From NCBI GenBank assembly GCA_043827325.1, contig JBDRPF010000037.1, positions 8,887 to 72,886 on the forward strand: a DNA stretch of 64,000 nt, written 5' to 3'. Below the pieces are notes generated by a model. It was not told the origin of the DNA. It saw only the letters and a program-made list of their open reading frames with translations, and did no database searches. This DNA is from Pseudomonadota bacterium (GTDB lineage Bacteria; Desulfobacterota; Desulfobacteria; Desulfobacterales; UBA11574). The number at the start of each line of letters is the position of its first letter. Position 1 is the stretch's first letter. Shown piece after piece: positions 1,300-26,002 of this stretch. Made by a program: the position numbers and the translations under genes.

Positions 1300-1986
1300 T
1301 TATTGCGTCACATACATTTCCCGGATGTTTTCCCGGTGATCGATCATGTAGCGCATGGTCGCGGCTTTTTTCAGATCCTCTATCAGTTTCGGCAATCGCG
1401 CACGGTCGATTTGTTGCGCCCGCACATAGAGGTTTCGATATCCGGGAGGGGCGCTTTGATAGGAGGCCAGAATGCTGACGAGCTGTCCTCCATAACTGCG
1501 AACGATGTCCGTAATCTGTTTGATAGACCCCGGATGGTCCTTTATGACAAAAGCGAACTGTACGCCCTTTTTGTACACACCGGTCAGGTTGGTCAAGATC
1601 CGGAACAGGTCCGTCTGGGTTATGATCCCCACGACCCGGCCGTTTTCATCCACAACCGGAACAGCGGAAATTTTGTTTTTTATAAGAATTTGCGCGGTCT
1701 CTTCTATGGAAAAATCCGGAGAAACGGTTATGGGATTTCGGGTCATGATACTTTTCACCTTGATTTTGGAAATCAGATAGAAGAGTTCATGAATTTCCAG
1801 CGACGTGGCATCGGAAGCGGACGCTCTTTTCAAATCCCGATCCGTTATAACCCCCACCAGTTTTTTGTTCTTCATTACCGGAAGAATACGAATGTTGTTT
1901 TCCTTGAGAAGCGTAATGGCCTCCTGCATGGAATCCTCTGCTTCAATCGTGATCACCGGCGCACTCATCCAGTTTGAAACAAGCAT
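1300..1986 (-). CDS. CBS-pair + ACT-like domain protein (AcuB-like)
   Basis: 228 aa with two CBS repeats (VITDRDLKRA, GIITQTDLFRI) and a C-terminal ACT-like region. It is a close paralog of 8502..9182. Confidence 0.8.
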   Translation of the reverse strand: MLVSNWMSAPVITIEAEDSMQEAITLLKENNIRILPVMKNKKLVGVITDRDLKRASASDATSLEIHELFYLISKIKVKSIMTRNPITVSPDFSIEETAQILIKNKISAVPVVDENGRVVGIITQTDLFRILTNLTGVYKKGVQFAFVIKDHPGSIKQITDIVRSYGGQLVSILASYQSAPPGYRNLYVRAQQIDRARLPKLIEDLKKAATMRYMIDHRENIREMYVTQ

Positions 1987-2013
1987 GGGAACACCTCATT
2001 TTATTTGGTTTTG

Positions 2014-2038
2014 AAAAAAACCGGGCCTTTGGCCCCGG
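2014..2038 (-). terminator. hairpin + U-tract directly after the usp stop codon (CCGGGGCC-AAA-GGCCCGG-TTTTTTT on the minus strand)
   Basis: GC stem followed by 7 T. It belongs to the repeated TAAAGAATYCGGG hairpin element. Confidence 0.5.
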
Positions 2039-2043
2039 ATTCT

Positions 2044-2517
2044 TTACTCGCGGCTGTGAGGTTCCGACCGTATGCTCAGCAACGGGACCGGGCAGTGGCG
2101 AAACATCTTCTCTGCTGTTGTGCCGAAAAGAATACCCTTCAGGTTGGTGCGGCCCTTCGGTCCCATAACCACGAGATCTGCATCCTCTTCCCGCACTGTC
2201 TTTATGAGTTCTTCAAACGGGATCCCGACTTTGAAAACCTTTTTGAATAAAAGGTATTTGAAGGATGCCTCCTGCATCATCACGTCGATCTGCCCGGATC
2301 GGTCCTCCGTTTGAAGTTCTATAAATTTTTCAACCGAAATCATCGCGCCGTATATCGCAACTCTTTTCACGATGTCCACTTCCTGCTGATTGATGACATT
2401 CGTTATAATCAAATCGGCCTTGAGGCTCTCGGCCAGTTCGGCAGCATACGTTAAAGCCGCTTTTGAATACTCGGAAAAGTCACAGGCAACCATAATTTTA
2501 CTGATTTTTTTCATCAT
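2044..2517 (-). CDS. universal stress protein (UspA family)
   Basis: 157 aa with [12 protein letters not shown] at the N-terminus and a VVMGPKGRT...[19 protein letters not shown]-binding-type C-terminus. Confidence 0.85.
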
Positions 2518-2566
2518 TTATCTCCTCGCGTTGGACATGTTTAATTGAAGGGTATCCGGTGATAAC

Positions 2567-2581
2567 GCAAAAGGTGTGCCA
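2567..2581 (-). promoter_or_regulatory. sigma54 -24/-12 promoter (TGGCAC-ACCTT-TTGC)
   Basis: Perfect consensus, 50 nt upstream of the usp ATG. The UAS lies 116 bp upstream. Confidence 0.75.
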
Positions 2582-2677
2582 CAGGTGGAACAGAGAGAAC
2601 ACAGAGCATAACTGTTCGATACTTTGGGATATCTTCGGGACTCGATAAAATGTCCCTGTCTGGCGGGATAGGGTTCG

Positions 2678-2706
2678 TGTCAGAATTTTTTACAAAATGT
2701 AAAAGG
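2678..2706. promoter_or_regulatory. putative bEBP enhancer (UAS) copy 2: TGTCAGAATTTTTTACAaaaTGTAAAAGG
   Basis: Perfect 7-3-7 palindrome. Its first 17 nt are identical to those of copy 5. Confidence 0.65.
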
Positions 2707-8275: not shown

Positions 8276-8291
8276 GACATTACCTTTTCGT

Positions 8292-8316: not shown

Positions 8317-8453
8317 AATGCCCGATGGCAATGCCGCCAAAGGACGGATAAATTGCGATCCGGATCAAAATGCTTGCCCGCAGCCGGGCATGCCCTCGTC
8401 ACCCCGGCTAAATAAGACAGGGCCGTTAGCGGGGCAGGCATGATTTGAGGTTT

Positions 8454-8467
8454 TGAAACCACTTACA
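8454..8467. repeat. third copy of the core (TGAAACCACTTACA, 13/14 match), inverted relative to 8292..8305
   Basis: Read directly from the sequence. It could pair with 8292..8305 across about 148 nt. Confidence 0.55.
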
Positions 8468-8501
8468 GGGTGCTTAATTCTATATTTTAAATCAATTACT
8501 T

Positions 8502-9182
8502 TCAACAGTAAACTGTTCTGGCGCCTTCGCGATGGTCAATCATGTAAAGGATATTCGCCGTTTCTCTCAGGGTTTTTTGGAGAACCGGGAGTTTTTTCCG
8601 GTCGATCTGATAGGCCCGAATGTAGACCCTTCGGTAGCCGGCCGGAGCCATTTCATTAGACGTCAGGACGTTCACGATGCGCCCGCCGGCGTCCCTGATG
8701 ATGTCTGTGACCTCCTTGACAGTTCCCGGACGATCTTCGACCTCAAAGGCGAACTGAATTCCTTTTTTGCCGACACCGGTGAGTGAAATCATCACGCGAA
8801 AGATATCGCTCTGGGTGATGATTCCCACAATCTCACCGGTTGAATCCACCACCGGGACCCCGGAGATTTTGTGCTCCAAGAGCACCAGCGCCGTCTCTTC
8901 CACGGTGTAATCCGGGGGAACCGTTATCGGCGTTTTGGTCATGACATTTTTAATTTTTATTGTTGAAAGCAGGACCGACAGCGCATGAATTTCCTGTGAG
9001 CTTGCATCCGAGGCGGATGCCCTTTTCAAATCCCGGTCCGTAACAATCCCGACCAGTTCGCCTTTTTTCAGGACCGGCAGTATTCGGATGCTGCGGTCGT
9101 TTAACAGTTTGATGGCATGTTGCATGTAATCGTCAGCGTTTACCGTGATCACCGGCGTGCTCATCCAATTTTTGACCAGCAT
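8502..9182 (-). CDS. CBS-pair + ACT-like domain protein (paralog of 1300..1986)
   Basis: Start trimmed to the ATG at 9182 (MLVKNWMSTPVITV), which has GGAGAT upstream. It aligns along its full length with 1300..1986. Confidence 0.8.
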   Translation of the reverse strand: MLVKNWMSTPVITVNADDYMQHAIKLLNDRSIRILPVLKKGELVGIVTDRDLKRASASDASSQEIHALSVLLSTIKIKNVMTKTPITVPPDYTVEETALVLLEHKISGVPVVDSTGEIVGIITQSDIFRVMISLTGVGKKGIQFAFEVEDRPGTVKEVTDIIRDAGGRIVNVLTSNEMAPAGYRRVYIRAYQIDRKKLPVLQKTLRETANILYMIDHREGARTVYC

Positions 9183-9202
9183 GACGATCTCCTTCCGTTT
9201 TT

Positions 9203-9673
9203 TTACTCCACTACCCAGACCGTGCAGTTTTTGGCATGGCTGACAATTTTGCTGGATATGCTCCCGAACAAAAACTCCTCGCTTATCGACAGGCCATGCC
9301 TGCCGACCACAATCGTACCGCAGCCCCATCGCGCCTGTTCGGCAAGGATGCATTCGGCAATGGAGGGACGATACCGGAGGGTTGTTTTCAGGTCGACCGC
9401 ATTCGGATCAAAGCCTTCTTGAACAAGGATCCGGCGGTATTGCTCGAGCACGCCGTCGATTTCCCGTCGATACTGCCGCAGCCATATCTCCTGCTCAATT
9501 TGGGTGGAGAAGTAATCTTCTTCAGGCGGGTTGATCACGTGCAGCAGAACGACGTCAACCCCCTGGAGGCCTCGCAGCGTCTGCGAAACGTAGGATACGG
9601 CCCTTCGAGAGTTTTCGGACTCATCCACAGCGATTAGAACCTTTCTGTTGTAATCATGATTCATATTTTTCAT
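9203..9673 (-). CDS. universal stress protein (UspA family)
   Basis: Start trimmed to the ATG at 9673 (MKNMNHDYNRKVLIAVDESENS), which has AGGAG upstream. The VVGRHGLS...GSISSKIVSHAKNCTVWVV C-terminus is present. Confidence 0.8.
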   Translation of the reverse strand: MKNMNHDYNRKVLIAVDESENSRRAVSYVSQTLRGLQGVDVVLLHVINPPEEDYFSTQIEQEIWLRQYRREIDGVLEQYRRILVQEGFDPNAVDLKTTLRYRPSIAECILAEQARWGCGTIVVGRHGLSISEEFLFGSISSKIVSHAKNCTVWVVE

Positions 9674-9698
9674 CACTCCTGCTTGCTTTAACCCCGAT

Positions 9699-10694
9699 TC
9701 AACTTTCAGAAGAGATCCGGTCGTGCCCGGCGGAAGAACGGTAGCTTTCGAGATCTTCCAGCAGCTGATCCGTGGTTTCATAAAAACAGTTGGCACCCTT
9801 TGAGAAATGGAGAAGGATTCGGTTGAGGCTCTCGGGGATGTAGGGATAAATTTTTTTCAGATTGGCAATGCGATTATTGAAAACGATGTTTTTATCCCCC
9901 GCCTGGATTCGATGCAGGGCGGGATGAATTTCCCGCCGGAGGTCCGAAATGAGCACATCGCCCTTTCCCACGAGAAACATTAACACATTCCCCAGGCCAA
10001 AAAGATCGTAGCTGTAGATACCCTCCCTCTGCCGGTAATTGAAATCGTAGTCGATCCATCGGTAATTCCCGGTTTCCCGGTCGACGATGAGATGATCTCT
10101 TCTGATGTCTCCGTGCTTTTCTTCATGCGCATGCAGAAACCGGATCGCCCGGATACACTCGACGAAATTGTGCAGAATCGCCGGGAACCGCCGGTTAAAA
10201 TAGGTTTCATGATCCAACGGAATGTCTTCCACCATGGTCGAGAGCGGTTTACCGTATATAAAATCGAGCACCCGAACGATATTGCCGTTCTCGTCGGTCG
10301 CGGCGTAACCGTGCATGAAATTTCTATGGTTTTTTACGAGCCCCAGGATCCGCGCCTCTTTCCTGGGACTGCGGAAGCACTCGAAATGAATATCGCCGAT
10401 ATGGGCGGTAAATCGCTCGTGAAAAACGAGCTTGATGATTTTGCGGCTCCCGTCCTGAAGGTCGAATGCCCGTTTGACCCAGAATTTTTCTTCATCGTCG
10501 AGCCCGAAGCGGCCCTCTTTGGCATTTTGCCGGATGAGGTAGGCCTTTTCGCCAAGGACCACGACGTCGTCGTAACCCACCCGGAAGAAATCCGTCGTAT
10601 CCGTGTGAACCTCAAACGCCCCGAGGTCATGGATGTTTGGAAACCACAGCCGGATCATCCGGCAAAGGGAATCTGTGTTCGGTTTATTCTTCAT
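9699..10694 (-). CDS. atypical protein-kinase-like fold protein (unknown substrate)
   Basis: 331 aa with an HGDIRRDHLIV catalytic-loop-like motif and WIDYDF (DFG-equivalent). No canonical Gly-rich loop is seen. Confidence 0.55.
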   Translation of the reverse strand: MKNKPNTDSLCRMIRLWFPNIHDLGAFEVHTDTTDFFRVGYDDVVVLGEKAYLIRQNAKEGRFGLDDEEKFWVKRAFDLQDGSRKIIKLVFHERFTAHIGDIHFECFRSPRKEARILGLVKNHRNFMHGYAATDENGNIVRVLDFIYGKPLSTMVEDIPLDHETYFNRRFPAILHNFVECIRAIRFLHAHEEKHGDIRRDHLIVDRETGNYRWIDYDFNYRQREGIYSYDLFGLGNVLMFLVGKGDVLISDLRREIHPALHRIQAGDKNIVFNNRIANLKKIYPYIPESLNRILLHFSKGANCFYETTDQLLEDLESYRSSAGHDRISSES

Positions 10695-10753
10695 GCTCGA
10701 TACGATTTCTCCTTAAAAGCCAACATGACCTTTCCACCGAAACCAATGAAGAA

Positions 10754-10773
10754 ACACCTTTGAAGAAAGGTGT
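10754..10773. other. perfect 8-bp hairpin ACACCTTT-gaag-AAAGGTGT in the 98-nt gap after glgP
   Basis: Palindrome read directly from the sequence. It may be an attenuator or a processing site. Confidence 0.45.
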
Positions 10774-10792
10774 CTCACAGAACCTATCCTGT

Positions 10793-13342
10793 TTAGGACC
10801 AGGTGATCAAACCGGGCATAAATTTCAGGCAATCGTCACCCTCGGGTATCGCCCTGACCGTAAACCCGTAGCGACCGGCCAGCCGGCAGGGAACCTGGCA
10901 CGCGTACCGATAATTTCCCCTGCCGAGATTTTCCCTTACGGCCATGGGGGTCGTGTTGATACCTTGCAGCGCATCCACCGATTTCATGTGCCCGTTGTAG
11001 AGTTCCACGCAAACCTCTTCCGGATTCAATTCTCCCAAACTGACCTCGACCGTGACTTCGAAGAATTCGCCGACCCGGAACGGCCCCTTGGCGGTCTGCA
11101 CCGGAAGCCCGATTTGGATCTGTTTCCACAGATTGCACAGCCGCTTTTCCCGGACCGCCAGACCGCGGGCTTCCCGGATGTTTTTTTTCAGCAATGATTC
11201 CAACCGGTGGACAATGGGAACATAAAATCGCTGCTCATATTCACCCACCATGCGAAGGCTGCAGAAATCCTTCATGGCCGTTTTCATCGAGGCCTTCATC
11301 ATTTGAATCCATTGTCTGGGAAGCTCGCCTTCCTGCTCCTCATAAAACCTTGGAATAACTTCATTTTCCAGGACATTATACAAGGCTTGGCTCTCGGTGG
11401 CGTCCTGGTAGGCGTGATCGGCATATTCTTCGCCGCCGCCGATCCGCCATCCGATTTGTTCGGAATAGCCTTCACACCACCACCCGTCCAGAATACTGAC
11501 GTTGAGAACACCGTTTATGGCGGCTTTCATTCCGGAGGTTCCGCAGGCTTCGTTGGGTCTGCGAGGCGTGTTGAGCCAGATGTCGGCGCCCTGAACGAGA
11601 CACCGTGCCAGCGCCATGTCATAACTCTCGATATATACGGCATGCTGACGAATTTCCGGACGCCGGATAAATTCAATCAGGCGTTTGATGATTTCTTTGC
11701 CTTTGTTGTCCCGGGGATGGGCCAGCCCGGCGAAAATGATCTGCACGGGGCGGGTTTCGTTGTTGAGAAGGGCAGACAGCCGCTCAGGGTCCTGAAGCAA
11801 AAGATGGGCGCGCTTGTATTCGGCAAACCTGCGCGCAAAGGCAATCGTCAGCACTTCAGGATCCAGAAGCGTTTGAATCCTGTCGATGGTGCTTTTGGGG
11901 GCGTTTCGCCGTTCGTATTGATTTTTGATGAGGTCACGGCAGGTGCGGATCAATCGCGTTCGGGCCATCTCATGGGCTCGCCAGAGCTCATCTTCGTAAA
12001 TCTCATCAATGCGGTCGATGTTCTCCGGCCGTCGGGAACTCATGTACCACTCCGGACCCAGATAGCGTTCAAACAGCGGCCAAATTTCCTGAGATATAAA
12101 CGTGGAGACATGAATCCCGTTGGTCACGTGCGAGATCGGGATCTCGTCTTCCGGACGCCCCGGCCAGATATGCGCCCACATTTTCCTGGCGGTGCGGCCG
12201 TGGAGCTGGCTGACACCGTTGCGATACTGAGACATTCTCAACCCCAGAATGGACATGGAAAACGGCACGTCTTTATCGAAACCCGCGGGCTGGCCCCAGG
12301 ACAAAATTTCTTCTTCTGTGGCCTTCAGGCGATCCTGCAGGGGTCGGATCCATGGTTTGACCAGATCAACGGGAAAGGAATCATGCCCGGCAGCGACCGG
12401 GGTGTGGGTGGTGAACACCGTGCAGCGGGGAATAATTTGCAATGCGGTCTTCAGGTCGATGTGATAACGCTCCATGAATATGGCAAGGCGTTCCAGGGTG
12501 GAAAATGCCGAATGTCCTTCGTTCATATGGCAGACGGCGGGAAAGATGTTCATGGCGGACAAGGCCCGCATTCCGCCGATGCCCAGCAGTACCTCCTGCG
12601 CCAGGCGAATTTTGGGCTCACCGGCGTAAAGACGTGCCGTAATTTCCCGTGCTTCCGGGGTGTTCTCCGGCAGGTTGGTGTCCAGCAAAAACAGTGGGGT
12701 GCGGCCTATCCGGATTATCCAGACAAACGCGTAAATCCTGCCTTCGGGACCGTCAACCGAAATCGTGATTTCGTTGCCCAGAGAATCCCTGGCGCGCTCC
12801 AGAGGAAGATAATTAAATTCGATTTCCGGATATTCTTCCTGCTGCCAGCCGTCCTGGTCGAGATACTGGCGGAAATAGCCCTTGCGGTACAGCAATCCGA
12901 CCCCGACGAGGGGCAGGGACATGTTGGAAGCGGCTTTCAGGTAATCTCCGGCAAGGACGCCGAGTCCGCCGGCGAAAATGGGAATGCTTTCGTGGATGCC
13001 GAATTCCATCGAGAAATAGGCTGCCGGTCCAATTTCTTCGTAAATATTTCGTGCCTCTTCCACATTTTCAACAACCCGATCCGTGTAGCGGTCCTTTACC
13101 CGCTGGAGGTGGGCCAAAAAGCTGTCATCCCGGGCCAATTGCTCCAGGCGCTCCTGGCTGACATTGGACAACAGGTAAATCGGGTTGCCCCTGCACTCCT
13201 TCCAGATTTGAGGATCAACCCGCCGAAACAGGGTTACCGCGTCCTGTTTCCAGCACCACCACAGGTTTCGGGAGAGCACCTCCAAAAATGACAGCGCGTC
13301 CGGTATGCCCGGGTAAATTTGGTACGTTAGAATATGTTTCAC
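10793..13342 (-). CDS. glgP: alpha-glucan phosphorylase (GT35, archaeal/maltodextrin-type with N-terminal DUF3417-like region)
   Basis: 849 aa with GGLGVLAGD and EACGTSGMKAAINGV (PLP-Lys region). GTG start with an AAGGAA RBS. Confidence 0.85.
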   Translation of the reverse strand: MKHILTYQIYPGIPDALSFLEVLSRNLWWCWKQDAVTLFRRVDPQIWKECRGNPIYLLSNVSQERLEQLARDDSFLAHLQRVKDRYTDRVVENVEEARNIYEEIGPAAYFSMEFGIHESIPIFAGGLGVLAGDYLKAASNMSLPLVGVGLLYRKGYFRQYLDQDGWQQEEYPEIEFNYLPLERARDSLGNEITISVDGPEGRIYAFVWIIRIGRTPLFLLDTNLPENTPEAREITARLYAGEPKIRLAQEVLLGIGGMRALSAMNIFPAVCHMNEGHSAFSTLERLAIFMERYHIDLKTALQIIPRCTVFTTHTPVAAGHDSFPVDLVKPWIRPLQDRLKATEEEILSWGQPAGFDKDVPFSMSILGLRMSQYRNGVSQLHGRTARKMWAHIWPGRPEDEIPISHVTNGIHVSTFISQEIWPLFERYLGPEWYMSSRRPENIDRIDEIYEDELWRAHEMARTRLIRTCRDLIKNQYERRNAPKSTIDRIQTLLDPEVLTIAFARRFAEYKRAHLLLQDPERLSALLNNETRPVQIIFAGLAHPRDNKGKEIIKRLIEFIRRPEIRQHAVYIESYDMALARCLVQGADIWLNTPRRPNEACGTSGMKAAINGVLNVSILDGWWCEGYSEQIGWRIGGGEEYADHAYQDATESQALYNVLENEVIPRFYEEQEGELPRQWIQMMKASMKTAMKDFCSLRMVGEYEQRFYVPIVHRLESLLKKNIREARGLAVREKRLCNLWKQIQIGLPVQTAKGPFRVGEFFEVTVEVSLGELNPEEVCVELYNGHMKSVDALQGINTTPMAVRENLGRGNYRYACQVPCRLAGRYGFTVRAIPEGDDCLKFMPGLITWS

Positions 13343-13358
13343 GGTCGGGTTCCTTTAC

Positions 13359-14309
13359 TTAAAAATAAGATTTCAAAGGGGTGTTCAACGCCTTTTTCAT
13401 GCGGACCTGCTGTTCATCCTTTCTTTTTCGGGCACCATTCAGTTTGGACTTCAGGTCTTTAAGTTCGGTGGGTTTCAAAAGGTAATCATAGGCCCCGAGC
13501 CGCATCGCCCGGACCGCTGTGTCAACTGAGGCATGGGCGGTCAGGACGATCACTTCAACCAGAGGAAATCTCTCTTTTATGTTTCTTAAGGTTTTGATTC
13601 CATCCATTCCCGGCATTGTCAAATCCAGAAAAACGACGTCGACCTCTACACGGTCCAATATTTCCAAGCATTCCTTTCCGCTGTAGGCGGAAGAAACATC
13701 ATCCCCGGCATTTTCCAGCCTCGCGGCCAGCATTTCCACAAAATCTTTTTCATCATCGACGATCAGCACCCGTGCGGGTGTCTTCACCAACTCCGCCCCG
13801 GGCGCTTTTTCGTCGCTCTTTGCATTTTCAGGGACGTTAACAGCGGGCAGGGATGTGTTTGTTTTTTCGTGCTTTTCCGCCACAAGGTTCTCAATCCGCG
13901 CCTTTTCAACACGTTTTACCTGTTCGCGCTTCCTGCGCGCGGCAGCTTCCAGTTTAGAGACGAGTTCATCATAGTCCGTTGGCTTTAAAAGAAAATCAAA
14001 GGCACCTATCTGCATGGCCTCGATAGCGTCCTGTGCATTTCCGTGGCCGGTTAACATGATCACCTCGATCAGGGGGTGGTTCTTTTTAATTTTTTTCAAT
14101 GTTTCGATTCCGTTTATCCCGGGCATCCAGACATCCAGAATGATCACATCAACATCGTCTTCTGCTAACACTGCAAGCAGTTCGAGGCATTCATTGCCGC
14201 CGGGGACCCCGGTAACCGATATCCCCCCTTCTCTGAGGATCAGGGAAAGCATTTCGACAAAATCATGCTCGTCATCGACGATCAGCACCCGGGTCGGAAT
14301 TTGGGCCAT
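13359..14309 (-). CDS. tandem-receiver protein (REC - coiled-coil linker - REC), no output domain
   Basis: 316 aa with two RVLIVDDE...D...MPG..G...K receiver signatures. Confidence 0.85.
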   Translation of the reverse strand: MAQIPTRVLIVDDEHDFVEMLSLILREGGISVTGVPGGNECLELLAVLAEDDVDVIILDVWMPGINGIETLKKIKKNHPLIEVIMLTGHGNAQDAIEAMQIGAFDFLLKPTDYDELVSKLEAAARRKREQVKRVEKARIENLVAEKHEKTNTSLPAVNVPENAKSDEKAPGAELVKTPARVLIVDDEKDFVEMLAARLENAGDDVSSAYSGKECLEILDRVEVDVVFLDLTMPGMDGIKTLRNIKERFPLVEVIVLTAHASVDTAVRAMRLGAYDYLLKPTELKDLKSKLNGARKRKDEQQVRMKKALNTPLKSYF

Positions 14310-15504
14310 GGGTTCTTTCTCCTTTTAATTTGTTGAGAAAATCGGACAAACGATCTTCTTTATATAATTCGTTTTTAACTTCCGAGTGCATCGGGAGCCT
14401 GACGCAAAAAACCGAGCCCTGTCCGAGCTGACTCTCCACTTCGATATTTCCTCCGAGCCGCTCAACGATACCCCGGGTAACATACAGCCCCAGACCGGTA
14501 CCCTGACCGGGGCTTTTGGTGCTGAAGAAAGGTTCAAATATCTTTTCGAAGTTTTCTTTGGGGATCCCTTCACCGGTATCCCGAATGCGGATGACAACCC
14601 TGCCGTCTTCATCTTGCAGCGCGATGCCGATCTTTCCGCCCGGCACACTGGCATGAATCGCATTGTTCAAAAGATTGATGAAAACTTGGCTGAGCTGATA
14701 CGGATCGCTCCAGATGGGTTTTAAGGACGCACTAAATTCCAGATCAATTTTGATGTCTTTGTTGGCCGCCTCCCTGTTGACCAGCAGCAAGGCTTCTTTG
14801 CTCAATTGAACCAGGTTCACTTCGGATAAGACAGACTCGGGTTTTTTTACAAACCCCAAAAGCTGGTGTGTAATTCTCCTGGCCCGGTCAATGCTTTTTG
14901 TGATTTTTTCAAGAGCCATTTCAAAATCCGTTTTTCGGGGCATGCGGGCCAGCTCTTCCCTTTTCAGGAGGAGCTTCATCCATCCGGCCGATTCATTGAT
15001 GATGGCCAGCGGGTTGTTGATTTCATGTGCCATGCCGGTTGCCAGGGTTCCAAGAGAGGCCAGTTTTTCAGCGGCGATCATCTGCTGCTCGATGTTGTTT
15101 CTAAATTCGGCTTCTTTTTGCTGTTCGCAACGCCGGCGTATCTTTTCATGGGCCTGCTTGATTTTACCGGTCAGATGTTCGAGTTCTATGGGTTTGGCAA
15201 GATAGTCAAAGGCCCCTGCCTTGATGCCTTCAACCCCATCCTGGGTCGTGGCCTGACCGGTCAGAAGAATAACCTCGGTTTCGGGGTAATGATGTTTAAT
15301 CTGAACGAGCGTTTCAATGCCGTTCATCCCCGGCATTTTAACGTCCAGCACGACCACATCCATCGGTGATTTTTCGAGAATCGACAGACATTCTTCCCCG
15401 CTTGCCGCCTCTTCAGGCGGCAGTCCCCTTTTCGTAAGACGGTTCACCAGGGGCCGCCTGAAATCGGCTTCGTCATCAACAACAAGAAGACGAATCTTTT
15501 CCAT
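14272..15504 (-). CDS. hybrid REC-histidine kinase (REC + HisKA + HATPase)
   Basis: 410 aa with an N-terminal receiver, the MAHEINNPL H-box and DTGEGI / GTGLGL boxes. It overlaps the next gene by 38 nt. Confidence 0.85.
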   Translation of the reverse strand: MEKIRLLVVDDEADFRRPLVNRLTKRGLPPEEAASGEECLSILEKSPMDVVVLDVKMPGMNGIETLVQIKHHYPETEVILLTGQATTQDGVEGIKAGAFDYLAKPIELEHLTGKIKQAHEKIRRRCEQQKEAEFRNNIEQQMIAAEKLASLGTLATGMAHEINNPLAIINESAGWMKLLLKREELARMPRKTDFEMALEKITKSIDRARRITHQLLGFVKKPESVLSEVNLVQLSKEALLLVNREAANKDIKIDLEFSASLKPIWSDPYQLSQVFINLLNNAIHASVPGGKIGIALQDEDGRVVIRIRDTGEGIPKENFEKIFEPFFSTKSPGQGTGLGLYVTRGIVERLGGNIEVESQLGQGSVFCVRLPMHSEVKNELYKEDRLSDFLNKLKGERTHGPNSDPGADRR

Positions 15505-15978
15505 TCAAGTCCTGTTCCGCTGTTGATAGGCATCCCTTATTTTGGTCAACAGCTCTTTAAAATCGCACGGTTTGGTGAGATAGTCGAAAGCGCCGCATTG
15601 AATGCCTTGCTTGGCAGCCTCCTCGGAACCATGTCCGGTGAGCATGATGACGACAATTTGGGGGTCCATTTTTTTAAATATTTTCAACACCTCAATCCCA
15701 TCCATGTCTTCCATCTTGAGGTCGATAACCGCCAGGTCAAATTCCTTCTTGCGGAGCGCCTGAATAGCCTCCGAGCCGCTGTAGGCCTTGGTCACCTGGA
15801 TATTCCTTTTGGACATCCGTTTCGCGATCACGTCCGCAAACCCTTTTTCATCATCGACAAGGATAAGCCTGATGGAATCCGATTTCGAAACCGGGCCGTT
15901 GACCGGCACACGTGCATCTGTTCGCTCGCCGTTACCGGCGGGATCCGGGTTCGTAGGTGTTCTTTTTTTGTCCGCCAT
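15505..15978 (-). CDS. single-domain response regulator (CheY-like) with a basic N-terminal tail
   Basis: 157 aa, RLILVDDE...DLKMEDMDG...K. Confidence 0.85.
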   Translation of the reverse strand: MADKKRTPTNPDPAGNGERTDARVPVNGPVSKSDSIRLILVDDEKGFADVIAKRMSKRNIQVTKAYSGSEAIQALRKKEFDLAVIDLKMEDMDGIEVLKIFKKMDPQIVVIMLTGHGSEEAAKQGIQCGAFDYLTKPCDFKELLTKIRDAYQQRNRT

Positions 15979-15986
15979 GAAAAATC

Positions 15987-16418
15987 CTAAACCATCCGGG
16001 AAGTAATTTCCCTCGTCCGAGCCTGAATGATCTTGTCTTCGTGAAGCCTTTTCTTGGTCGCGGCTTCCGTCACCTTGGAAGTCAGCTGTTCCATGTCACA
16101 GGGCTTCATGAGATAATCAAAGGCACCCTCTTTCATTCCTTCGATGGCGGACTCCACCGTGGCGTGACCGGTAAGCATGACGACTTCCACCAGGGGATGC
16201 CGCATTTTCATTTCTTTAAGGGCTTCTATCCCATCCATTCCCGGCATTTTGACATCGAGAATGACGACCTCGATATCGTTCTGTTCTTTAAGGCGATCCA
16301 GGCCTTCCTCTCCGCTGAACGCAGTCACAACGTTCATTTTTCTTTTGGTCAAGCGCTTGGTCATCGTTTCCACGAAAGGGACCTCGTCATCCACCAGAAG
16401 TATTTTTGCAATCGTCAT
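15987..16418 (-). CDS. single-domain response regulator (CheY-like)
   Basis: 143 aa, KILLVDDE...DVKMPGMDG...KP. AAGGAG RBS. Confidence 0.9.
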   Translation of the reverse strand: MTIAKILLVDDEVPFVETMTKRLTKRKMNVVTAFSGEEGLDRLKEQNDIEVVILDVKMPGMDGIEALKEMKMRHPLVEVVMLTGHATVESAIEGMKEGAFDYLMKPCDMEQLTSKVTEAATKKRLHEDKIIQARTREITSRMV

Positions 16419-16440
16419 GTTCAGTTCTCCTTTATTTAAT

Positions 16441-18141
16441 TTAATCTGTCTTATGTTTTGGAATGGGAATTTGAATGCTGAATGTCGTCCCCAGGCCGAT
16501 AACGCTTTTCACATTAATTTCCCCGCCCATTTTTTTTATGATGCCGTAACAGATGGACAGTCCCAATCCCGTCCCCTTGCCAACCGGTTTTGTGGTAAAA
16601 AACGGGTCAAAGATTCTGGAAAGATAATCCCTGTGAATGCCGGGACCATTGTCACCCAGATCAATTACAATGTTTTCATCTTCCGCCCGACTGGCGATGG
16701 TGATGACGCCGCCGCCCCTGCTGTCCATGGCGTCCAGGGAGTTGTTGATAAGATTCAGAAAAACCTGCTGCATTTCTGTTTGAGACGCCTCAATAAACGG
16801 CAAATCGTTTTCAAGTTGTTTAGTGATCGAAACCTTGCTGTATTTTGCCCGCTGTTCTGAAAGGCCGACCACATCTTCTATCAGTTCGTTTATTTGAACG
16901 ATCTGGACCCGTGAGTCTGTTTTTCTTGCAAAACTCAGCAGCTTATGAGTGATTTCCTTACAGCGTTTTCCCTGCACGTTAATCTGTCTCAGCGCCCGTT
17001 GGAATTCGTTGAGATTTTCACTTTCTGTGAAATCCTCTTCCTCCAGGAGGTCCTGTATCCACCCGGCCTCTTCAACCATTATGGCAACCGGATTGTTGAT
17101 CTCATGTGCAATGCCTGCCGCCAGTTCACCGACAGATGCCAGCTTGCCGCTTTCGATGACCTGTTGATTGAGCATCTCTTTTTCGCGGTCCGCTTTGGCG
17201 ATTCGATCGACCATTCTCCGGGACAATACAAAAGCCATTGTAATGATGCTGATGCCGCCGATTAAAAAGATTATGACCGCAACATTCTGTGCGCGTCTCA
17301 GGTCCGAAAAGGCATCGGCCGCATTCTGCTTATATACCAGGAGCCACTCGCCGTTCTTGAGAAAAGCGGACACATAGATGTTTTTGATCCCGGAGGCATC
17401 CGGGCCTTCGGAAATGTGGATTTCTTCATCCTTTTCCTCGCCGATTTTCATAAAATTCATGAATGTCTCTTTGCCCGGAATAATGTCGCGAGTCGGGTCG
17501 GTCTGGAATTCCCCCTTTTTGTTCACAATAAATGCAAATCCGGTTTTGCCGATGCGAATATTTCTCACCAGGTTGTTAAAGGAGACAAAATCGATGGTTG
17601 ACCTCAGTATCCAGGGTCTTCCCTGGTAGGTGTTTTTTACCGCGACAATAAAATGAGGTCGGCCGCGAAGTCCCAAAAACACATCGCTGATAAAGTGCTG
17701 GCGGTCGATGGCCTGCTTAAACCAGTCCGCTTCCGAATATTGAGCGTTTGCCAGTTGAAACGGTCCGGCATAGGCGACCTGGAATCCCTGGTCATTGACG
17801 ACGCCGAGGTCTTCAAAAACCGAACCATATCCCTGCTGAAGCAAGGCCAGTCTGTTTTTCAGGAAGGATTCGGAACTCAGCGCTTCAAAATCCGACGTTT
17901 CAGCGAGGAATCGAATGTCACTCAGTTTTTCATTTAAAAATGTGTTGATGTTCTGCCTGTGCTTTTTGATCAGCACTCTCAGGTGATCGTGCACCTTTTC
18001 ATGGTATGATGTTCGGAACTGATTGAGGATAGTGCCGCCGACCAGAATCATGGGCGCAAAGGAAACAATGATGACCGTGAGGATCATTTTTTGGGTCAAC
18101 GATGTGTAGTATGTGCCGTTTTGAGCTTTATTTTTATCCAT
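16441..18141 (-). CDS. membrane sensor histidine kinase (Cache-like periplasmic domain + HisKA + HATPase)
   Basis: 566 aa with two TM segments, the IAHEINNPV H-box and DNGPGI / GTGLGL. It is a paralog of 32341..34041 and 45585..47315. Confidence 0.85.
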   Translation of the reverse strand: MDKNKAQNGTYYTSLTQKMILTVIIVSFAPMILVGGTILNQFRTSYHEKVHDHLRVLIKKHRQNINTFLNEKLSDIRFLAETSDFEALSSESFLKNRLALLQQGYGSVFEDLGVVNDQGFQVAYAGPFQLANAQYSEADWFKQAIDRQHFISDVFLGLRGRPHFIVAVKNTYQGRPWILRSTIDFVSFNNLVRNIRIGKTGFAFIVNKKGEFQTDPTRDIIPGKETFMNFMKIGEEKDEEIHISEGPDASGIKNIYVSAFLKNGEWLLVYKQNAADAFSDLRRAQNVAVIIFLIGGISIITMAFVLSRRMVDRIAKADREKEMLNQQVIESGKLASVGELAAGIAHEINNPVAIMVEEAGWIQDLLEEEDFTESENLNEFQRALRQINVQGKRCKEITHKLLSFARKTDSRVQIVQINELIEDVVGLSEQRAKYSKVSITKQLENDLPFIEASQTEMQQVFLNLINNSLDAMDSRGGGVITIASRAEDENIVIDLGDNGPGIHRDYLSRIFDPFFTTKPVGKGTGLGLSICYGIIKKMGGEINVKSVIGLGTTFSIQIPIPKHKTD

Positions 18142-18189
18142 AACATTACCCGATTAAATGAAAAACTTCAGATGTGCATCCTCAGTTAC

Positions 18190-18204
18190 GCAAAAGATAT
18201 GCCA
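18190..18204 (-). promoter_or_regulatory. sigma54 -24/-12 promoter (TGGCAT-ATCTT-TTGC)
   Basis: 49 nt upstream of the kinase ATG. The UAS lies 116 bp upstream. Confidence 0.7.
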
Positions 18205-18300
18205 CAACAGAAGGAAAAGGGAGAGAGCGAATAACCGACTGATACTTATATAAGTATCGAGTGCCCGACAAACGGTTCTCGCCGGGCGGGGCCGGTGCTG

Positions 18301-18330
18301 TGTCGAGTTTTTTTACAGAATGTAAAAAGG
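18301..18330. promoter_or_regulatory. putative bEBP enhancer (UAS) copy 4: TGTCGAGTTTTTTTACAgaaTGTAAAAAGG
   Basis: Perfect 7-3-7 palindrome. Confidence 0.65.
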
Positions 18331-18371
18331 GGCGGGGGCTAGTGTCGTGTCCCGAAAATAACTTGAATAAT

Positions 18372-18593
18372 TCAACGATCTCGGTACTCCTTTTTCCGGT
18401 ATTCAATAGCCAGCCTTCGCTTTTTTCGCAACCGCTGCTGGATCGTGAAACTCTTGTGCCGGCGCCTGGTTATTTTAAACATGCTTATGTTTTCAATTTT
18501 ATTTCTAAGCTCCAATAACGCACGTTCGACATCGTTGTTCCGCACCAGAACAGACGGGTAGTCGTTATATGTTTCGATCATTGCCTTTGGCAT
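18372..18593 (-). CDS. divergent ribosomal protein S21-like protein
   Basis: MPKAMIETYNDYPSVLVRNNDVERALLELRNKIE...RRRHKSF...RLRKKRRLAIEYRKKEY follows the S21 pattern (VxVRxN..ExALrrfk...RRRxxyxkp..kRkrKk) with an extra N-terminal segment of about 12 aa. The ATG at 18593 has GGAGG 8 nt upstream. Confidence 0.5.
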   Translation of the reverse strand: MPKAMIETYNDYPSVLVRNNDVERALLELRNKIENISMFKITRRRHKSFTIQQRLRKKRRLAIEYRKKEYRDR

Positions 18594-19445: not shown

Positions 19446-19452
19446 CGAAAAA

Positions 19453-21320: not shown

Positions 21321-21341
21321 TCTTCCCGCAGCCGCACGATA

Positions 21342-24565: not shown

Positions 24566-26002
24566 TTAAAACGGATCCTTTTTTACGGAAGTCTCGAGTT
24601 TCAGCTGGTATTTTTCGATTTTGGAGTGCAGCGTCGGCCTGGAAAGCCCGAGGAGTTTTGCCGTCTTTGAGCGGTTGCCGCCGGAGAGGTTCAGCGCCTC
24701 GCTGATAACGATGCTGGCAAAGTGATCCATGCATGAATCAAATATATTGCGTCCGGTTCTGGAGGAAAGTTCCCGTCGAATAAACTGCCTGAGTGTCAGA
24801 TCTTTGCTGTCTGCACCGGCATCATCAGCGGGACTTTTTTCCCGGATGGCCTGATCAATGTCTTCGGGGGAAAGCGGGGCGCCGCGGTTGAATATCAGGG
24901 ATTTTTGAATGGTATTGGCAAGTTCACGCACATTGCCGGGCCAGGAGTGACCGGAAAGGAGCCTTTTTGCCTCATCGGTAATCCCGGGGTTGTTCACTCC
25001 CGCCTCATTTGTAAACCGGGTGAGAAAGAATTCCGTCAAAAGGGGTATATCGTCGGCCCTTTCGTTGAGAAGGGGAAGGCGGATGGTCACCACCTTGAGG
25101 CGATAATAGAGGTCTTCGCGGAACCGGCCGTCTGCAATGGCCGTTTCCAGGTCCCGGTTGGTGGCGGCAATAACGCGCACGTCCACGGGGATGTTCTGGC
25201 GCCCCCCCAGCCGCTCAATACTTTTTTCCTGAAGCAGCCGCAGCATTTTGGCCTGAAGACCAAAAGGCATATCTCCGATTTCATCAAGCAAGACGGTTCC
25301 TCCGTGAGCCTGTTCGATCTTTCCCACACGACGATGTGTGGCACCGGTGAAGGCCCCTTTTTCATACCCGAACAGCTCGCTTTCCAGGAGGGTTTCGGGA
25401 ATGGCCACACAGTTGATCACCAGAAAAGGCTTGTCGGCCCGAAAGCTGTGCTGATAAATCGCCCGGGCCACCAGTTCTTTTCCCGTTCCGGAGTCTCCCC
25501 TGATGAGCACGGTAGCGTCGGTGGGAGCGACCCGCCCGATGGCTTTGTAGACCTCCTGCATCGGAGCGCTTCGCCCGATGATGGCTTCTCTGGAAGCCTG
25601 ATCCGGAGAAATATTCATATCCACCGGCGAACGCATGAAACGTCCTGCTTCAAGCGCTTTTTTGACCACATCCAGCATAACCGGGATATCAAACGGCTTG
25701 AGGATGTAATCGAACGCACCCATCTTGGTGGCTTCGATGGCTGTTTCGGTCGTTCCGTAAGCGGTCATCATAATTACCGGGAGTTTGGGTTCCATCCGGT
25801 GAATGGCCTTAAAGGTTTCCAGACCGTTCATTCCCGGCAGGCGCATGTCCAGGATAACCAGATCCGGGTTCTCTTTCTGAATGACTATAAGCCCGGCTTC
25901 CCCGGAGGCGGCGCTTTTCGCGGAATATCCCTCCTCGGTCAGAAGCTTATCGAAGCTTTTTCTGAGCTGATCATCGTCGTCTATAATGAGAACGATACTC
26001 AC
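24566..26002 (-). CDS. NtrC-family sigma54-dependent response regulator (REC + AAA+ + Fis-type HTH)
   Basis: 478 aa with GDSGTGKE Walker A, canonical GAFTGA, WPGNVREL and C-terminal KTAKLLGLSRPTLHSKI. GTG start. Confidence 0.9.
   Translation of the reverse strand: MSIVLIIDDDDQLRKSFDKLLTEEGYSAKSAASGEAGLIVIQKENPDLVILDMRLPGMNGLETFKAIHRMEPKLPVIMMTAYGTTETAIEATKMGAFDYILKPFDIPVMLDVVKKALEAGRFMRSPVDMNISPDQASREAIIGRSAPMQEVYKAIGRVAPTDATVLIRGDSGTGKELVARAIYQHSFRADKPFLVINCVAIPETLLESELFGYEKGAFTGATHRRVGKIEQAHGGTVLLDEIGDMPFGLQAKMLRLLQEKSIERLGGRQNIPVDVRVIAATNRDLETAIADGRFREDLYYRLKVVTIRLPLLNERADDIPLLTEFFLTRFTNEAGVNNPGITDEAKRLLSGHSWPGNVRELANTIQKSLIFNRGAPLSPEDIDQAIREKSPADDAGADSKDLTLRQFIRRELSSRTGRNIFDSCMDHFASIVISEALNLSGGNRSKTAKLLGLSRPTLHSKIEKYQLKLETSVKKDPF

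What the first reader, a model, noticed from the sequence alone, without database searches (positions are those of the whole stretch)
8502..18330. A sigma54-driven string of about 9.6 kb fuses a multi-step REC phosphorelay to glycogen phosphorylase, a kinase-like protein, Usp and CBS/ACT
Nine co-directional genes lie here with gaps of 0-25 nt, apart from one 98-nt gap that holds a perfect hairpin at 10754-10773. The order is Cache-HK, CheY-like, CheY-like, REC-HK hybrid, REC-REC, GlgP, atypical kinase-like protein, Usp, CBS/ACT. None of the five receiver-containing proteins has a DNA-binding or enzymatic output domain. The only visible outputs are the co-transcribed metabolic and adenylate-sensing genes. 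This suggests a branched phosphorelay that controls glycogen mobilisation post-translationally. Examples would be REC proteins docking on GlgP, or on the kinase-like, Usp or CBS proteins. I know of no described example of such wiring.
Basis: inference. Interest (0 to 1): 0.65.

Follow-up and report, generated by a model that had tools for sequence, protein, structure and literature searches.

The report
Sigma-54 operon joining signalling and glycogen genes
The nine genes are real and probably form one sigma-54-driven operon, but the link between the signalling genes and glycogen phosphorylase occurs only in this genome; what is conserved is a shared sigma-54 regulon, apparently undescribed, that covers energy-reserve enzymes and small nucleotide-sensing proteins in Desulfobacterales.

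Summary
Nine co-directional minus-strand genes (18141 to 8502) carry the stated domains, follow a sigma-54 promoter, and are interrupted only by one 98-nt gap holding a hairpin.

The junction between the REC-REC gene and glgP appears in 0 of 3 loci with a REC-REC orthologue, 0 of 80 glgP loci and 0 of 80 loci of the kinase-like gene. In relatives the signalling module is followed instead by Usp1 and CBS/ACT1 behind their own sigma-54 promoter. The kinase-like gene pairs with Usp in 78 of 79 informative loci.

No HPt domain is present and the second kinase carries its receiver at the N-terminus. The signalling genes are therefore a multi-kinase, receiver-only network resembling RedCDEF, not a canonical phosphorelay.

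The new result is a shared promoter architecture:
- An enhancer palindrome TTTACA-N3-TGTAAA lies about 107 nt upstream of the -24/-12 element, often with an IHF consensus between them.
- It heads this operon, six other units in the window, and about 70 units in related loci.
- In relatives those units include glgP itself, Usp1, CBM48, the CMK-like gene and the kinase-like gene.
- All 13 orthologues of the NtrC-type activator at 24566-26002 have this palindrome within 1 kb downstream.

Glycogen phosphorylase is therefore linked to the signalling genes by co-regulation in one sigma-54 regulon, not by conserved post-translational wiring.

The parts
18311..18327 (-). Enhancer (UAS) palindrome TTTTACAttcTGTAAAA, 107 nt upstream of the -24/-12 element
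   Evidence: 18 strand-matches, about 8 sites, in the window against 1.2 expected; 0 of 100 shuffles reach this. The same element sits at the same distance in 6 other window promoters and about 70 promoters in related loci.
18232..18244 (-). IHF consensus TATCAGTCGGTTA (WATCARNNNNTTR) between the UAS and the promoter. It overlaps the palindrome GATACTTATATAAGTATC at 18241-18258.
   Evidence: 40 of 64 unique UAS-promoter spacers carry the consensus at a fixed position 30-49 nt upstream of -24, against 1.45 in shuffles.
18189..18204 (-). Sigma-54 -24/-12 promoter element TGGCATatcttTTGCG, 47 nt upstream of the kinase ATG
   Evidence: An identical 16-mer heads the Usp1 orthologues in L082 and L083.
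16441..18141 (-). Membrane sensor kinase: dCache_1 + HisKA (HEINNP H-box) + HATPase_c
   Evidence: The orthologue in L081 is 83% identical.
15987..16418 (-). Single-domain receiver (143 aa) of NtrC-type REC class
   Evidence: D12, D13, D57, T87 and K109 are all present. An RNA contig spans the junction between the kinase gene and this gene.
15505..15978 (-). Single-domain receiver (157 aa) with a 35-aa N-terminal tail
14272..15504 (-). Soluble kinase with an N-terminal receiver (REC-HisKA-HATPase). This is a receiver-regulated second-tier kinase, not a phosphorelay hybrid.
   Evidence: The H-box and the G1, F and G2 boxes are visible in the sequence.
13359..14309 (-). Dual-receiver protein (REC-REC) without an output domain
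   Evidence: Only 3 orthologous clusters were found in 5.8 billion proteins.
10793..13342 (-). Alpha-glucan (glycogen/maltodextrin) phosphorylase: DUF3417 + GT35, TIGR02094 type. GTG start with an AAGGAA ribosome-binding site, 16 nt after the REC-REC stop.
   Evidence: The PLP-lysine motif TSGMKAAING is visible in the sequence.
10751..10776 (-). Hairpin with an 11-bp stem and a CUUC loop in the 98-nt glgP-KinL gap. The U-tail is weak, so it is a possible partial terminator or stabiliser.
   Evidence: the 106-nt stretch around the gap, 10695-10800, has z = -2.1; not called by the terminator scan.
9699..10694 (-). KinL: a divergent Hanks-type protein-kinase-like protein, invariably paired with the downstream Usp
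   Evidence: KinL is followed by Usp2 in 78 of 79 informative loci.
9203..9673 (-). Usp2: a universal stress protein with the ATP-binding-type motif G-x2-G-x9-G-S
   Evidence: the motif is read from the sequence.
8502..9182 (-). CBS-CBS-(ACT) protein (CBSACT2), a paralogue of 1300-1986
24566..26002 (-). NtrC-type sigma-54 activator (REC-AAA+-HTH_8), the best candidate binder of the UAS. It lies outside the reported coordinates.
   Evidence: All 13 orthologues (72-75% identical) have a UAS within 1 kb downstream of their stop, against a background of 0.04 per kb. Its own string is headed by the UAS at 31190-31206 and the sigma-54 site at 31069-31084.
1300..2704 (-). Usp1 (2044-2517) and CBSACT1 (1300-1986) with their own UAS (2688-2704) and sigma-54 site (2566-2581). 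These are the orthologues of the pair that follows the signalling module in relatives.

Best explanation
The nine genes most likely form one sigma-54-dependent operon in this groundwater Desulfobacterales genome. The operon is a lineage-specific joining of separately conserved modules that all belong to one sigma-54 regulon.

The modules are:
- (i) A rare receiver-only signalling module: Cache-kinase, two single receivers, a receiver-regulated kinase and a dual receiver.
- (ii) glgP.
- (iii) The very widespread pair of a kinase-like protein and Usp.
- (iv) A CBS/ACT paralogue.

The regulon is defined by a fixed promoter architecture. The enhancer palindrome TTTACA-N3-TGTAAA is followed by an IHF site and then the -24/-12 element about 107 nt downstream of the palindrome.

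The likely activator is the NtrC-family response regulator at 24566-26002, with its kinase at 26007-27572. Its own operon carries the same promoter.

Shown here: the domains, the promoter architecture and its conservation, regulon membership of glgP, Usp1, CBM48, CMK-like and KinL in relatives, and non-conservation of the junction between the signalling genes and glgP.

Inferred: the signalling module works as a two-tier kinase cascade with phosphate sinks, resembling RedCDEF. Its output is inferred to be cross-talk onto the NtrC-type activator, or binding to the small nucleotide-sensing proteins Usp1 and CBS/ACT1 that are its only conserved neighbours. By this reading glycogen breakdown is tied to it by shared transcription, as part of an energy-reserve response. 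That response also includes glycogen synthase and CBM48. If the NtrC-headed string is read through to 19715, it would also take in PPK2 and ADP-forming acetyl-CoA synthetase.
For: - Domains and gene models.
- There is a single sigma-54 site at the head of the string and none inside it.
- The UAS is enriched 15-fold in the window, with 0 of 100 shuffles reaching the count.
- The composite UAS/sigma-54 promoter has a spacing mode of 108 nt. It occurs in 7 window units, in 28 sites in L001-L083 and in 43 sites in L084-L163.
- An IHF consensus is present in 40 of 64 unique spacers, against 1.45 expected.
- glgP has its own UAS/sigma-54 promoter in L089, L108, L109, L110 and L112. It lies just downstream of UAS-driven Usp1 in L097 and L156, and further downstream in the same direction in L087, L096, L134 and L162, where other genes (Usp copies or REC-PAS-HK-NarL) intervene or the promoter heads an upstream Usp.
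- The KinL-Usp2 adjacency holds in 78 of 79 informative loci.
- KinL has its own sigma-54 promoter in L001, L004 and L007, but none in the window's 98-nt gap.
- REC-REC orthologues are followed by orthologues of Usp1 (67% identity) and CBSACT1 (78% identity) behind their own UAS/sigma-54 promoter.
- All 13 NtrC orthologues have a UAS within 1 kb downstream.
- All receivers keep the phospho-acceptor residues.
- No HPt domain was found in the nine proteins.
- Near-identical transcripts of the kinase, receivers and glgP exist in estuary metatranscriptomes.
Against: - No direct transcript evidence spans the REC-REC/glgP or glgP/KinL junctions, so co-transcription of the whole string is inferred from spacing alone.
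- The hairpin may terminate part of the transcription.
- The assignment of the activator rests on gene neighbourhood only. The window's own NtrC gene has no UAS immediately downstream, and Desulfobacteria carry dozens of activators (PMC12316311).
- The phosphotransfer order and any cross-talk to NtrC are untested.
- rpoN itself was not sought, because it lies outside the window.
- Loci from metagenome and genome collections may include near-duplicates, so the counts are not fully independent.
Confidence: 0.6

Rival explanations
1. A branched phosphorelay has phosphorylated receiver proteins that dock on GlgP, KinL, Usp or CBS/ACT, and so controls glycogen mobilisation post-translationally.
For: - The genes are tightly spaced and probably co-transcribed here.
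- None of the four receiver proteins has a DNA-binding domain.
- REC-REC is next to a Usp-CBS/ACT pair in all three relatives that have it.
- Proteins that fuse a similar REC domain to CBS or to cytidylate-kinase-like domains exist.
- HPr docking on and phosphorylating GlgP is a precedent (PMC13324651).
Against: - The junction between the signalling genes and glgP is found in no relative: 0 of 3, 0 of 80 and 0 of 80 loci.
- In relatives Usp-CBS/ACT sits 355-450 nt away behind its own promoter.
- The CBS and CMK-like parts of the fusion proteins are not close homologues of the window proteins.
- No HPt domain is present.
- A receiver-containing sigma-54 activator of the same regulon is encoded nearby.
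Confidence: 0.15
2. The KinL-Usp2 pair, not the receivers, is the post-translational regulator of glycogen enzymes. KinL would be a Hanks-type kinase that phosphorylates GlgP or GlgA, or Usp2 as an adaptor, in the manner of phosphorylase kinase or of Myxococcus Pkn4 acting on PFK.
For: - KinL has a protein-kinase fold. The AF2 model has pLDDT 84.6, and the Foldseek top hits are PknS, PpkA, Stk1 and ASK1 at probability 1.0.
- Family-invariant residues fit a G-loop, lysine, glutamate, HGD and DxD arrangement.
- In the closest clade the pair is directly adjacent to glgP (window; L002 and L084 as KinL-Usp2-glgP with a 20-nt gap) or to glgA (L004).
- Pkn4 phosphorylating PFK is a precedent in a related phylum (PMC6213207, its reference 90).
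Against: - In most KinL loci no glycogen gene lies within 10 kb; only about 7 of 80 have one.
- The only invariant partner is Usp2.
- The catalytic-loop asparagine is replaced by histidine, and the Pfam kinase score is below the cut-off, so catalytic activity is uncertain.
Confidence: 0.15
3. The string is an accidental juxtaposition from recent rearrangement, with no functional meaning. The modules act independently and merely share a strand.
For: - Every inter-module junction is unique to this genome.
- A contig from a population with about 93% identity stops aligning exactly at the glgP stop codon, which hints at a different downstream neighbour.
- A MITE-like repeat lies just downstream of the string.
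Against: All modules carry, or in relatives sit behind, the same UAS/IHF/sigma-54 promoter type. They also recur in the same neighbourhoods in many genomes in shuffled order. This argues for a common regulon rather than chance.
Confidence: 0.1

Closest known systems
RedCDEF 'four-component' system of Myxococcus xanthus (PMC2755868)
   Same: Both have a membrane histidine kinase, a dual-receiver protein without an output domain, a second kinase-type protein and a single-domain receiver, encoded together. Signalling occurs among the components themselves, including a phosphate sink or phosphatase logic, with no DNA-binding output in the cluster.
   Different: Here there are two single receivers. 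The second kinase carries an N-terminal receiver and has intact ATP-binding boxes, whereas RedE does not autophosphorylate. The cluster is under a sigma-54/UAS promoter and is joined to metabolic genes. Orthology to the Red proteins was not tested and is unlikely beyond the domain level.
NtrB/NtrC-type sigma-54 regulons (enhancer, IHF, -24/-12 architecture), for example those catalogued in Desulfovibrio vulgaris (PMC4641369)
   Same: The -24 GG and -12 GC elements, a palindromic enhancer about 100 nt upstream, an IHF site between them, and an autoregulated operon encoding a REC-AAA+-HTH activator and its kinase.
   Different: The enhancer sequence TTTACA-N3-TGTAAA and the gene content differ: Usp, CBS/ACT, a cytidylate-kinase-like protein, a kinase-like protein, CBM48, glgP and receiver-only cascades. 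These are not mentioned in the D. vulgaris regulome paper, and the cross-phylum sigma-54 survey mentions neither glycogen nor phosphorylase and names Usp only for Planctomycetia.
HPr control of E. coli glycogen phosphorylase (PMC13324651)
   Same: It shows that a small phospho-carrier protein of a signalling chain can dock on GlgP, phosphorylate it and regulate it allosterically.
   Different: HPr belongs to the PTS and is not a receiver domain. E. coli GlgP is the classical GT35 type (TIGR02093), whereas the window enzyme is the DUF3417/TIGR02094 type. No evidence here points to a GlgP-receiver contact.
Pkn4 acting on phosphofructokinase in Myxococcus xanthus (PMC6213207, its reference 90), and eukaryotic phosphorylase kinase
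   Same: A Hanks-type kinase targets an enzyme of carbohydrate catabolism. By my recollection, not checked here, pkn4 lies next to pfk and the control concerns glycogen consumption.
   Different: KinL is far more divergent, with Pfam below the cut-off and the catalytic asparagine replaced by histidine. Its invariant neighbour is a Usp, not a metabolic enzyme. No substrate is known.

Membership tests
Sigma-54-dependent promoter with enhancer | -24 GG and -12 GC elements with 10-nt spacing, matching TGGCAC-N5-TTGCW | tested here: met
   TGGCATatcttTTGCG at 18189-18204, scoring 9 of 12 with both invariant dinucleotides. An identical site lies in front of the Usp1 orthologues in L082 and L083.
Sigma-54-dependent promoter with enhancer | Upstream activator site about 100 nt away, and an IHF bending site between | tested here: met
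   The UAS at 18311-18327 lies 107 nt upstream of the -24/-12 element. The IHF consensus lies at 18232-18244.
Sigma-54-dependent promoter with enhancer | Transcription start mapped, and dependence on rpoN and an activator | not testable with these tools
   Only short metatranscriptome contigs from relatives are available. rpoN lies outside the window.
Multi-step His-Asp-His-Asp phosphorelay | An HPt or Spo0B-type histidine phosphotransferase between two receivers | tested here: not met
   The Pfam scan of all nine proteins finds only Response_reg, HisKA, HATPase_c and dCache_1.
Multi-step His-Asp-His-Asp phosphorelay | A hybrid kinase with a C-terminal receiver that accepts from its own transmitter | tested here: not met
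   The receiver of the 410-aa protein is N-terminal, at residues 7-115, ahead of HisKA.
RedCDEF-like multi-component two-component system | Two kinase-type proteins, a dual receiver and single receiver(s), all without an output domain, in one cluster | tested here: met
   All receivers keep D12, D13, D57, T87 and K109.
RedCDEF-like multi-component two-component system | Phosphotransfer from the dual receiver back to the second kinase, and phosphatase action on the single receiver | not testable with these tools
   This needs in vitro phosphotransfer profiling.
GT35 alpha-glucan phosphorylase (TIGR02094 subfamily) | Family HMM score above the curated cut-off, and the PLP-lysine motif | tested here: met
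   TIGR02094 scores 802 bits against a cut-off of 191.7. The motif EACGTSGMKAAING is present in the translation.
Hanks-type (eukaryote-like) Ser/Thr protein kinase | Pfam Pkinase score above the gathering score | tested here: not met
   21.9 bits against a cut-off of 31.7.
Hanks-type (eukaryote-like) Ser/Thr protein kinase | Bilobal protein-kinase fold | tested here: met
   The AF2 model has pLDDT 84.6. The Foldseek top hits are PknS, PpkA, Stk1 and ASK1 at probability 1.0, with TM 0.5-0.6.
Hanks-type (eukaryote-like) Ser/Thr protein kinase | Catalytic residues: the VAIK lysine, the alpha-C glutamate, the HRD aspartate, the catalytic-loop asparagine and the DFG aspartate | tested here: inconclusive
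   K85/K88, E113, H194-G-D196 and D215-x-D217 are invariant across the family. The asparagine position is an invariant histidine, H201. The residue assignment was made by eye and not checked on the model.
Universal stress protein, ATP-binding class | Usp HMM above the cut-off, and the motif G-x2-G-x9-G(S/T) | tested here: met
   PF00582 scores 67.9 bits against a cut-off of 24. GRHGLSISEEFLFGS is present in the translation.
CBS-pair + ACT (AcuB-like) protein | Two CBS domains followed by an ACT domain | tested here: inconclusive
   CBS scores 107 bits over two stretches. ACT scores 17.6 bits against a cut-off of 27.

The most novel reading that the evidence does not exclude
Desulfobacterales may possess a dedicated energy-reserve sigma-54 regulon with a second, post-translational control layer on glycogen phosphorylase and synthase. 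In that layer an atypical Hanks-type kinase-like protein works with its obligatory ATP-binding Usp partner and with receiver-only cascades. This would be a bacterial counterpart of phosphorylase-kinase control. The window's operon would then be the most condensed form of the circuit.
Probability: 0.12. Interest if true: 0.7.

Novelty: new variant of a known kind. Interest (0 to 1): 0.4.

Why it matters
Sulfate reducers of the Desulfobacterales carry dozens of sigma-54 activators (up to 69 in one genome, PMC12316311), and what many of them control appears to be unknown.

This work yields a concrete, testable regulon. It has a defined enhancer sequence, a candidate activator, and a target set made of reserve-polymer enzymes and small nucleotide-sensing proteins. 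The targets include glycogen phosphorylase, glycogen synthase with CBM48, Usp, CBS/ACT and a cytidylate-kinase-like protein, together with a kinase-like/Usp pair found in at least 489 species; PPK2 and ADP-forming acetyl-CoA synthetase lie co-directionally downstream of the NtrC-headed unit and may belong too.

The regulon gives a handle on how these slow-growing sediment and groundwater bacteria manage energy reserves. It also assigns a context to a large family of uncharacterised kinase-like proteins.

The result further shows that the apparent fusion of a phosphorelay to GlgP is a local operon rearrangement and not a new signalling principle.

Tried and rejected
- **RNA evidence for transcription units.** Only short Logan contigs from estuary metatranscriptomes of near relatives matched. 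One spans the junction between the kinase and the first receiver. None spans REC-REC/glgP or glgP/KinL. The same-study groundwater metatranscriptome gave almost nothing. The result is inconclusive.
- **Rosetta-stone argument.** Proteins that fuse a similar REC domain to CBS or to Cytidylate_kin2 domains turned up. Their non-REC parts are not close homologues of the window's CBS/ACT or CMK-like proteins. I kept this only as a weak, domain-level hint.
- **First enhancer search.** I used the wrong spacer, N4, and the search returned chance level. Correcting it to N3 gave the strong signal.
- **The 73-aa basic ORF at 18372-18593.** I guessed it was S21-like, but it has no Pfam match, so I dropped the guess.
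- **Internal promoters.** No sigma-54 site scoring 9 or more lies within 300 nt upstream of any gene inside the string. The sigma-70-like and terminator-like counts are at shuffle level.
- **Literature.** The D. vulgaris sigma-54 regulome paper does not mention glycogen, Usp, CBS or the motif. No paper combined glycogen, Desulfobacterales, Usp, CBS and sigma-54.
- **Contigs from populations about 93-97% identical (runs X2-X4).** They hint that the sequence just beyond the glgP stop and just upstream of KinL differs from the window. The contig sequences cannot be read, so I did not use this as evidence.

Full report
**1. What is in the sequence**

All nine genes lie on the minus strand between 18141 and 8502.

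- A dCache_1-HisKA-HATPase membrane kinase (16441-18141).
- Two single-domain receivers (15987-16418 and 15505-15978).
- A soluble kinase with an N-terminal receiver (14272-15504).
- A dual receiver (13359-14309).
- An alpha-glucan phosphorylase of the DUF3417/TIGR02094 type (10793-13342), scoring 802 bits against a cut-off of 191.7.
- A 331-aa protein with a sub-threshold protein-kinase match (9699-10694).
- A Usp (9203-9673).
- A CBS-CBS protein with a weak ACT match (8502-9182).

The gaps between genes are 22, 8, 0, -38, 16, 98, 25 and 20 nt.

The hairpin in the 98-nt gap is real and has an 11-bp stem at 10751-10776. Its U-tail is weak, and the terminator scan does not call it.

Three small corrections apply. 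There are four receiver-containing proteins with five receiver domains, not five proteins. One of them has a kinase output. One gene pair overlaps.

All five receiver domains, and those of neighbouring genes, keep the CheY residues D12, D13, D57, T87 and K109.

An independent Logan contig from the source groundwater run covers 2029-19523 without a difference.

**2. The promoter**

The only sigma-54-type element in or before the string is TGGCATatcttTTGCG at 18189-18204. It lies 47 nt before the kinase ATG.

I compared upstream regions of other window genes and of orthologues elsewhere. This exposed a shared palindrome, TTTACA-N3-TGTAAA, usually followed by A-rich sequence and GACAC.

The palindrome gives 18 strand-matches, about 8 sites, in the window against 1.2 expected, and 0 of 100 shuffles reach this count.

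Seven of the sites lie 96-107 nt upstream of a -24/-12 element. They head the following units:
- The CMK-like gene (247-999).
- Usp1-CBSACT1 (2517-1300).
- CBM48 (5257-4895).
- The nine-gene string.
- A plus-strand ABM gene (19152-19445).
- A string running REC, REC, CBS, Na/sulfate-type symporter, kinase, NtrC-type activator (from 31069 down to 24566).
- A second dCache kinase (32341-34041).

The same composite promoter occurs 28 times in the KinL- and REC-REC-anchored loci and 43 times in the glgP-anchored loci. Its spacing mode is 108 nt.

In 40 of 64 unique spacers an exact IHF consensus lies 30-49 nt upstream of the -24 element, against 1.45 in shuffles. The string's own promoter is among them, with the consensus at 18232-18244.

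The description "sigma-54-driven" is therefore well supported, and the string is one unit of a larger regulon.

**3. Is the gene order conserved?**

I anchored the comparison three ways.

*(a) Anchoring on the kinase-like protein (KinL).*
- KinL belongs to a large, highly conserved Desulfobacterales family. There are 2834 hits at 60-87% identity, and relatives occur in at least 489 species-level genomes.
- In 80 genome loci, KinL is followed directly by a Usp2 orthologue in 78 of 79 informative cases.
- glgP is never directly upstream of KinL, and the five signalling genes are never adjacent to it.
- Glycogen genes lie near KinL in only about 7 loci.
- In the closest clade the adjacency is striking but permuted. 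The window has glgP-KinL-Usp2. L002 and L084 have Usp ... KinL-Usp2-glgP, with a 20-nt gap before glgP. L004 has glgA-KinL-Usp2.

*(b) Anchoring on REC-REC.*
- The REC-REC protein has only three orthologous clusters in 5.8 billion proteins.
- In a single-cell genome (L081) the signalling module also holds a Na/sulfate-type symporter and an extra receiver. It is followed, after 355 nt, by orthologues of the window's Usp1 (67% identity) and CBSACT1 (78% identity), not by glgP.
- L082 and L083 show the same arrangement after 450 nt.
- Those Usp genes have their own enhancer and sigma-54 site.
- In the same single-cell genome, KinL-Usp2 sits after glgA on another contig (L004).

*(c) Anchoring on glgP.*
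- In 80 glgP-anchored metagenome loci the signalling module is never upstream of glgP.
- Close glgP orthologues (78-85% identity) are preceded by Usp1, by a PAS-kinase/NarL pair, or by KinL-Usp2.
- In five loci glgP is preceded directly by its own enhancer and sigma-54 promoter.
- The clade at about 60% identity has a glgP-glgA operon instead.

Every inter-module junction of the window string is therefore unique to this genome. The modules themselves recur in the same neighbourhoods, in shuffled order, behind the same promoter type.

**4. The likely activator**

The window's NtrC-type protein (24566-26002) has REC, AAA+ and HTH_8 domains. It lies behind the kinase gene at 26007-27572, in a string headed by the same enhancer.

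The order REC, REC, CBS, symporter, kinase, NtrC is conserved in L087, L096, L134 and L156.

All 13 orthologues at 72-75% identity have an enhancer palindrome within 1 kb downstream of their stop codon. The density across all fetched loci is 0.04 per kb.

This neighbourhood evidence is good, but it is not proof.

It also offers a DNA-binding output for the output-less receivers. The operon's kinases have the HEINNP H-box of the NtrB/AtoS/ZraS class, and the receivers score best against NtrC-family receivers. Cross-talk is therefore plausible, but it is inferred.

**5. The kinase-like protein**

An AlphaFold2 model built on 18 family members is confident, with pLDDT 84.6 and pTM 0.85.

The model matches Hanks-type kinases best. 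The top hits are PknS, PpkA, Stk1 and ASK1 at probability 1.0, with TM 0.5-0.6. A profile search of PDB sequences gives only weak kinase hits.

Family-invariant residues fit a G-loop (EGRFG), a lysine (K85/K88), a glutamate (E113), HGD196 and D215-x-D217. The catalytic-loop asparagine position is an invariant histidine.

KinL is best described as a divergent protein-kinase-like protein of unknown substrate. Its one constant partner is an ATP-binding-type Usp.

**6. Mechanism**

Best supported, at about 0.6: the string is one sigma-54 operon created by a lineage-specific joining of modules of a single regulon. Glycogen phosphorylase is tied to the signalling genes by shared transcription, within an energy-reserve response.

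The signalling genes are not a canonical phosphorelay, because no HPt domain is present and the hybrid kinase has an N-terminal receiver. They form a two-tier, receiver-only network resembling RedCDEF (PMC2755868).

Rivals:
It keeps some support for Usp and CBS/ACT but not for GlgP.
- A model in which KinL-Usp2 is the post-translational regulator of glycogen enzymes, at about 0.15. It is supported by the adjacency in the nearest clade and by the Pkn4-PFK precedent (PMC6213207).
- Meaningless juxtaposition, at about 0.1.

**7. Comparison with known systems and novelty**

Known precedents cover each element:
- Multi-component receiver-only systems: RedCDEF (PMC2755868).
- Enhancer/IHF/sigma-54 promoters.
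- Phospho-carrier control of GlgP: HPr (PMC13324651).

I found no description of this enhancer or of this regulon content. I checked the D. vulgaris sigma-54 regulome, a cross-phylum sigma-54 survey and a combined full-text search.

The string itself is a new variant of known kinds. The regulon and the KinL-Usp pair are the parts worth following up.

**8. Verdict**

Sigma-54 drive, probable co-transcription and the Usp/CBS link hold. The conserved wiring from the receivers to GlgP does not.
- Interest is 0.4.

Noticed in passing
window 1300-5351 (minus strand): A second glycogen cluster: CBM48/AMPK1_CBM protein (4895-5257), glycogen synthase (2754-4427), then a paralogous Usp1 (2044-2517) and CBS/ACT1 (1300-1986) pair and a cytidylate-kinase-like gene (247-999). 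Three of these units have their own enhancer and sigma-54 promoter. Usp1 and CBSACT1, rather than the copies inside the string, are the orthologues of the pair that follows the signalling module in relatives.
   Followed up: yes
window 8292-8467: A MITE-like element of about 176 nt, flanked by 19-nt inverted repeats, lies between the CBS/ACT gene and the PAS-kinase gene. It shows very high depth and loose ends in other metagenomes, so it is a repeated mobile element. Another high-depth stretch lies at about 19540-19650.
   Followed up: partly
window 30498-30947 and 31325-31804 (minus strand): Two almost identical single-domain receiver genes lie in tandem, which suggests a recent duplication. 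The first of them opens the conserved string REC, REC, CBS, symporter, kinase, NtrC.
   Followed up: partly
window 32341-34041 (plus strand): A second dCache kinase of exactly the same length (566 aa), 36% identical to the operon's kinase, has its own enhancer (32070-32086), IHF consensus and sigma-54 site (32188-32203).
   Followed up: partly
window 19715-31084 (minus strand): A co-directional string is headed by the same promoter type. It encodes two receivers, a CBS protein, a DASS-family symporter, a 4HB/CHASE3 kinase, the NtrC-type activator, TauE, ADP-forming acetyl-CoA synthetase and a two-domain PPK2. Together with the nine-gene string and the glycogen cluster, it makes a co-directional island of about 31 kb from 31069 to 247.
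   Followed up: partly
window 18372-18593 (minus strand): A 73-aa, very basic ORF with a good ribosome-binding site lies just upstream of the operon's enhancer. It has no Pfam match. A resemblance to ribosomal protein S21 was only an impression and was not confirmed.
   Followed up: partly
L001-L080 (KinL-anchored genome loci): The KinL-Usp pair is present in at least 489 species-level genomes of Desulfobacterales and relatives, at 60-87% identity, and has no known function. In several genomes (L006, L008, L009, L010, L014, L072) it follows the cytidylate-kinase-like gene, which carries the enhancer and sigma-54 promoter.
   Followed up: partly
window 34872-39984 and 40189-40204: A second, 836-aa sigma-54 activator without a receiver domain sits next to a PEP-synthase/PPDK-like gene. 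A perfect sigma-54 consensus lies at 40189-40204 on the plus strand. Neither is linked to the TTTACA-N3-TGTAAA enhancer.
   Followed up: no
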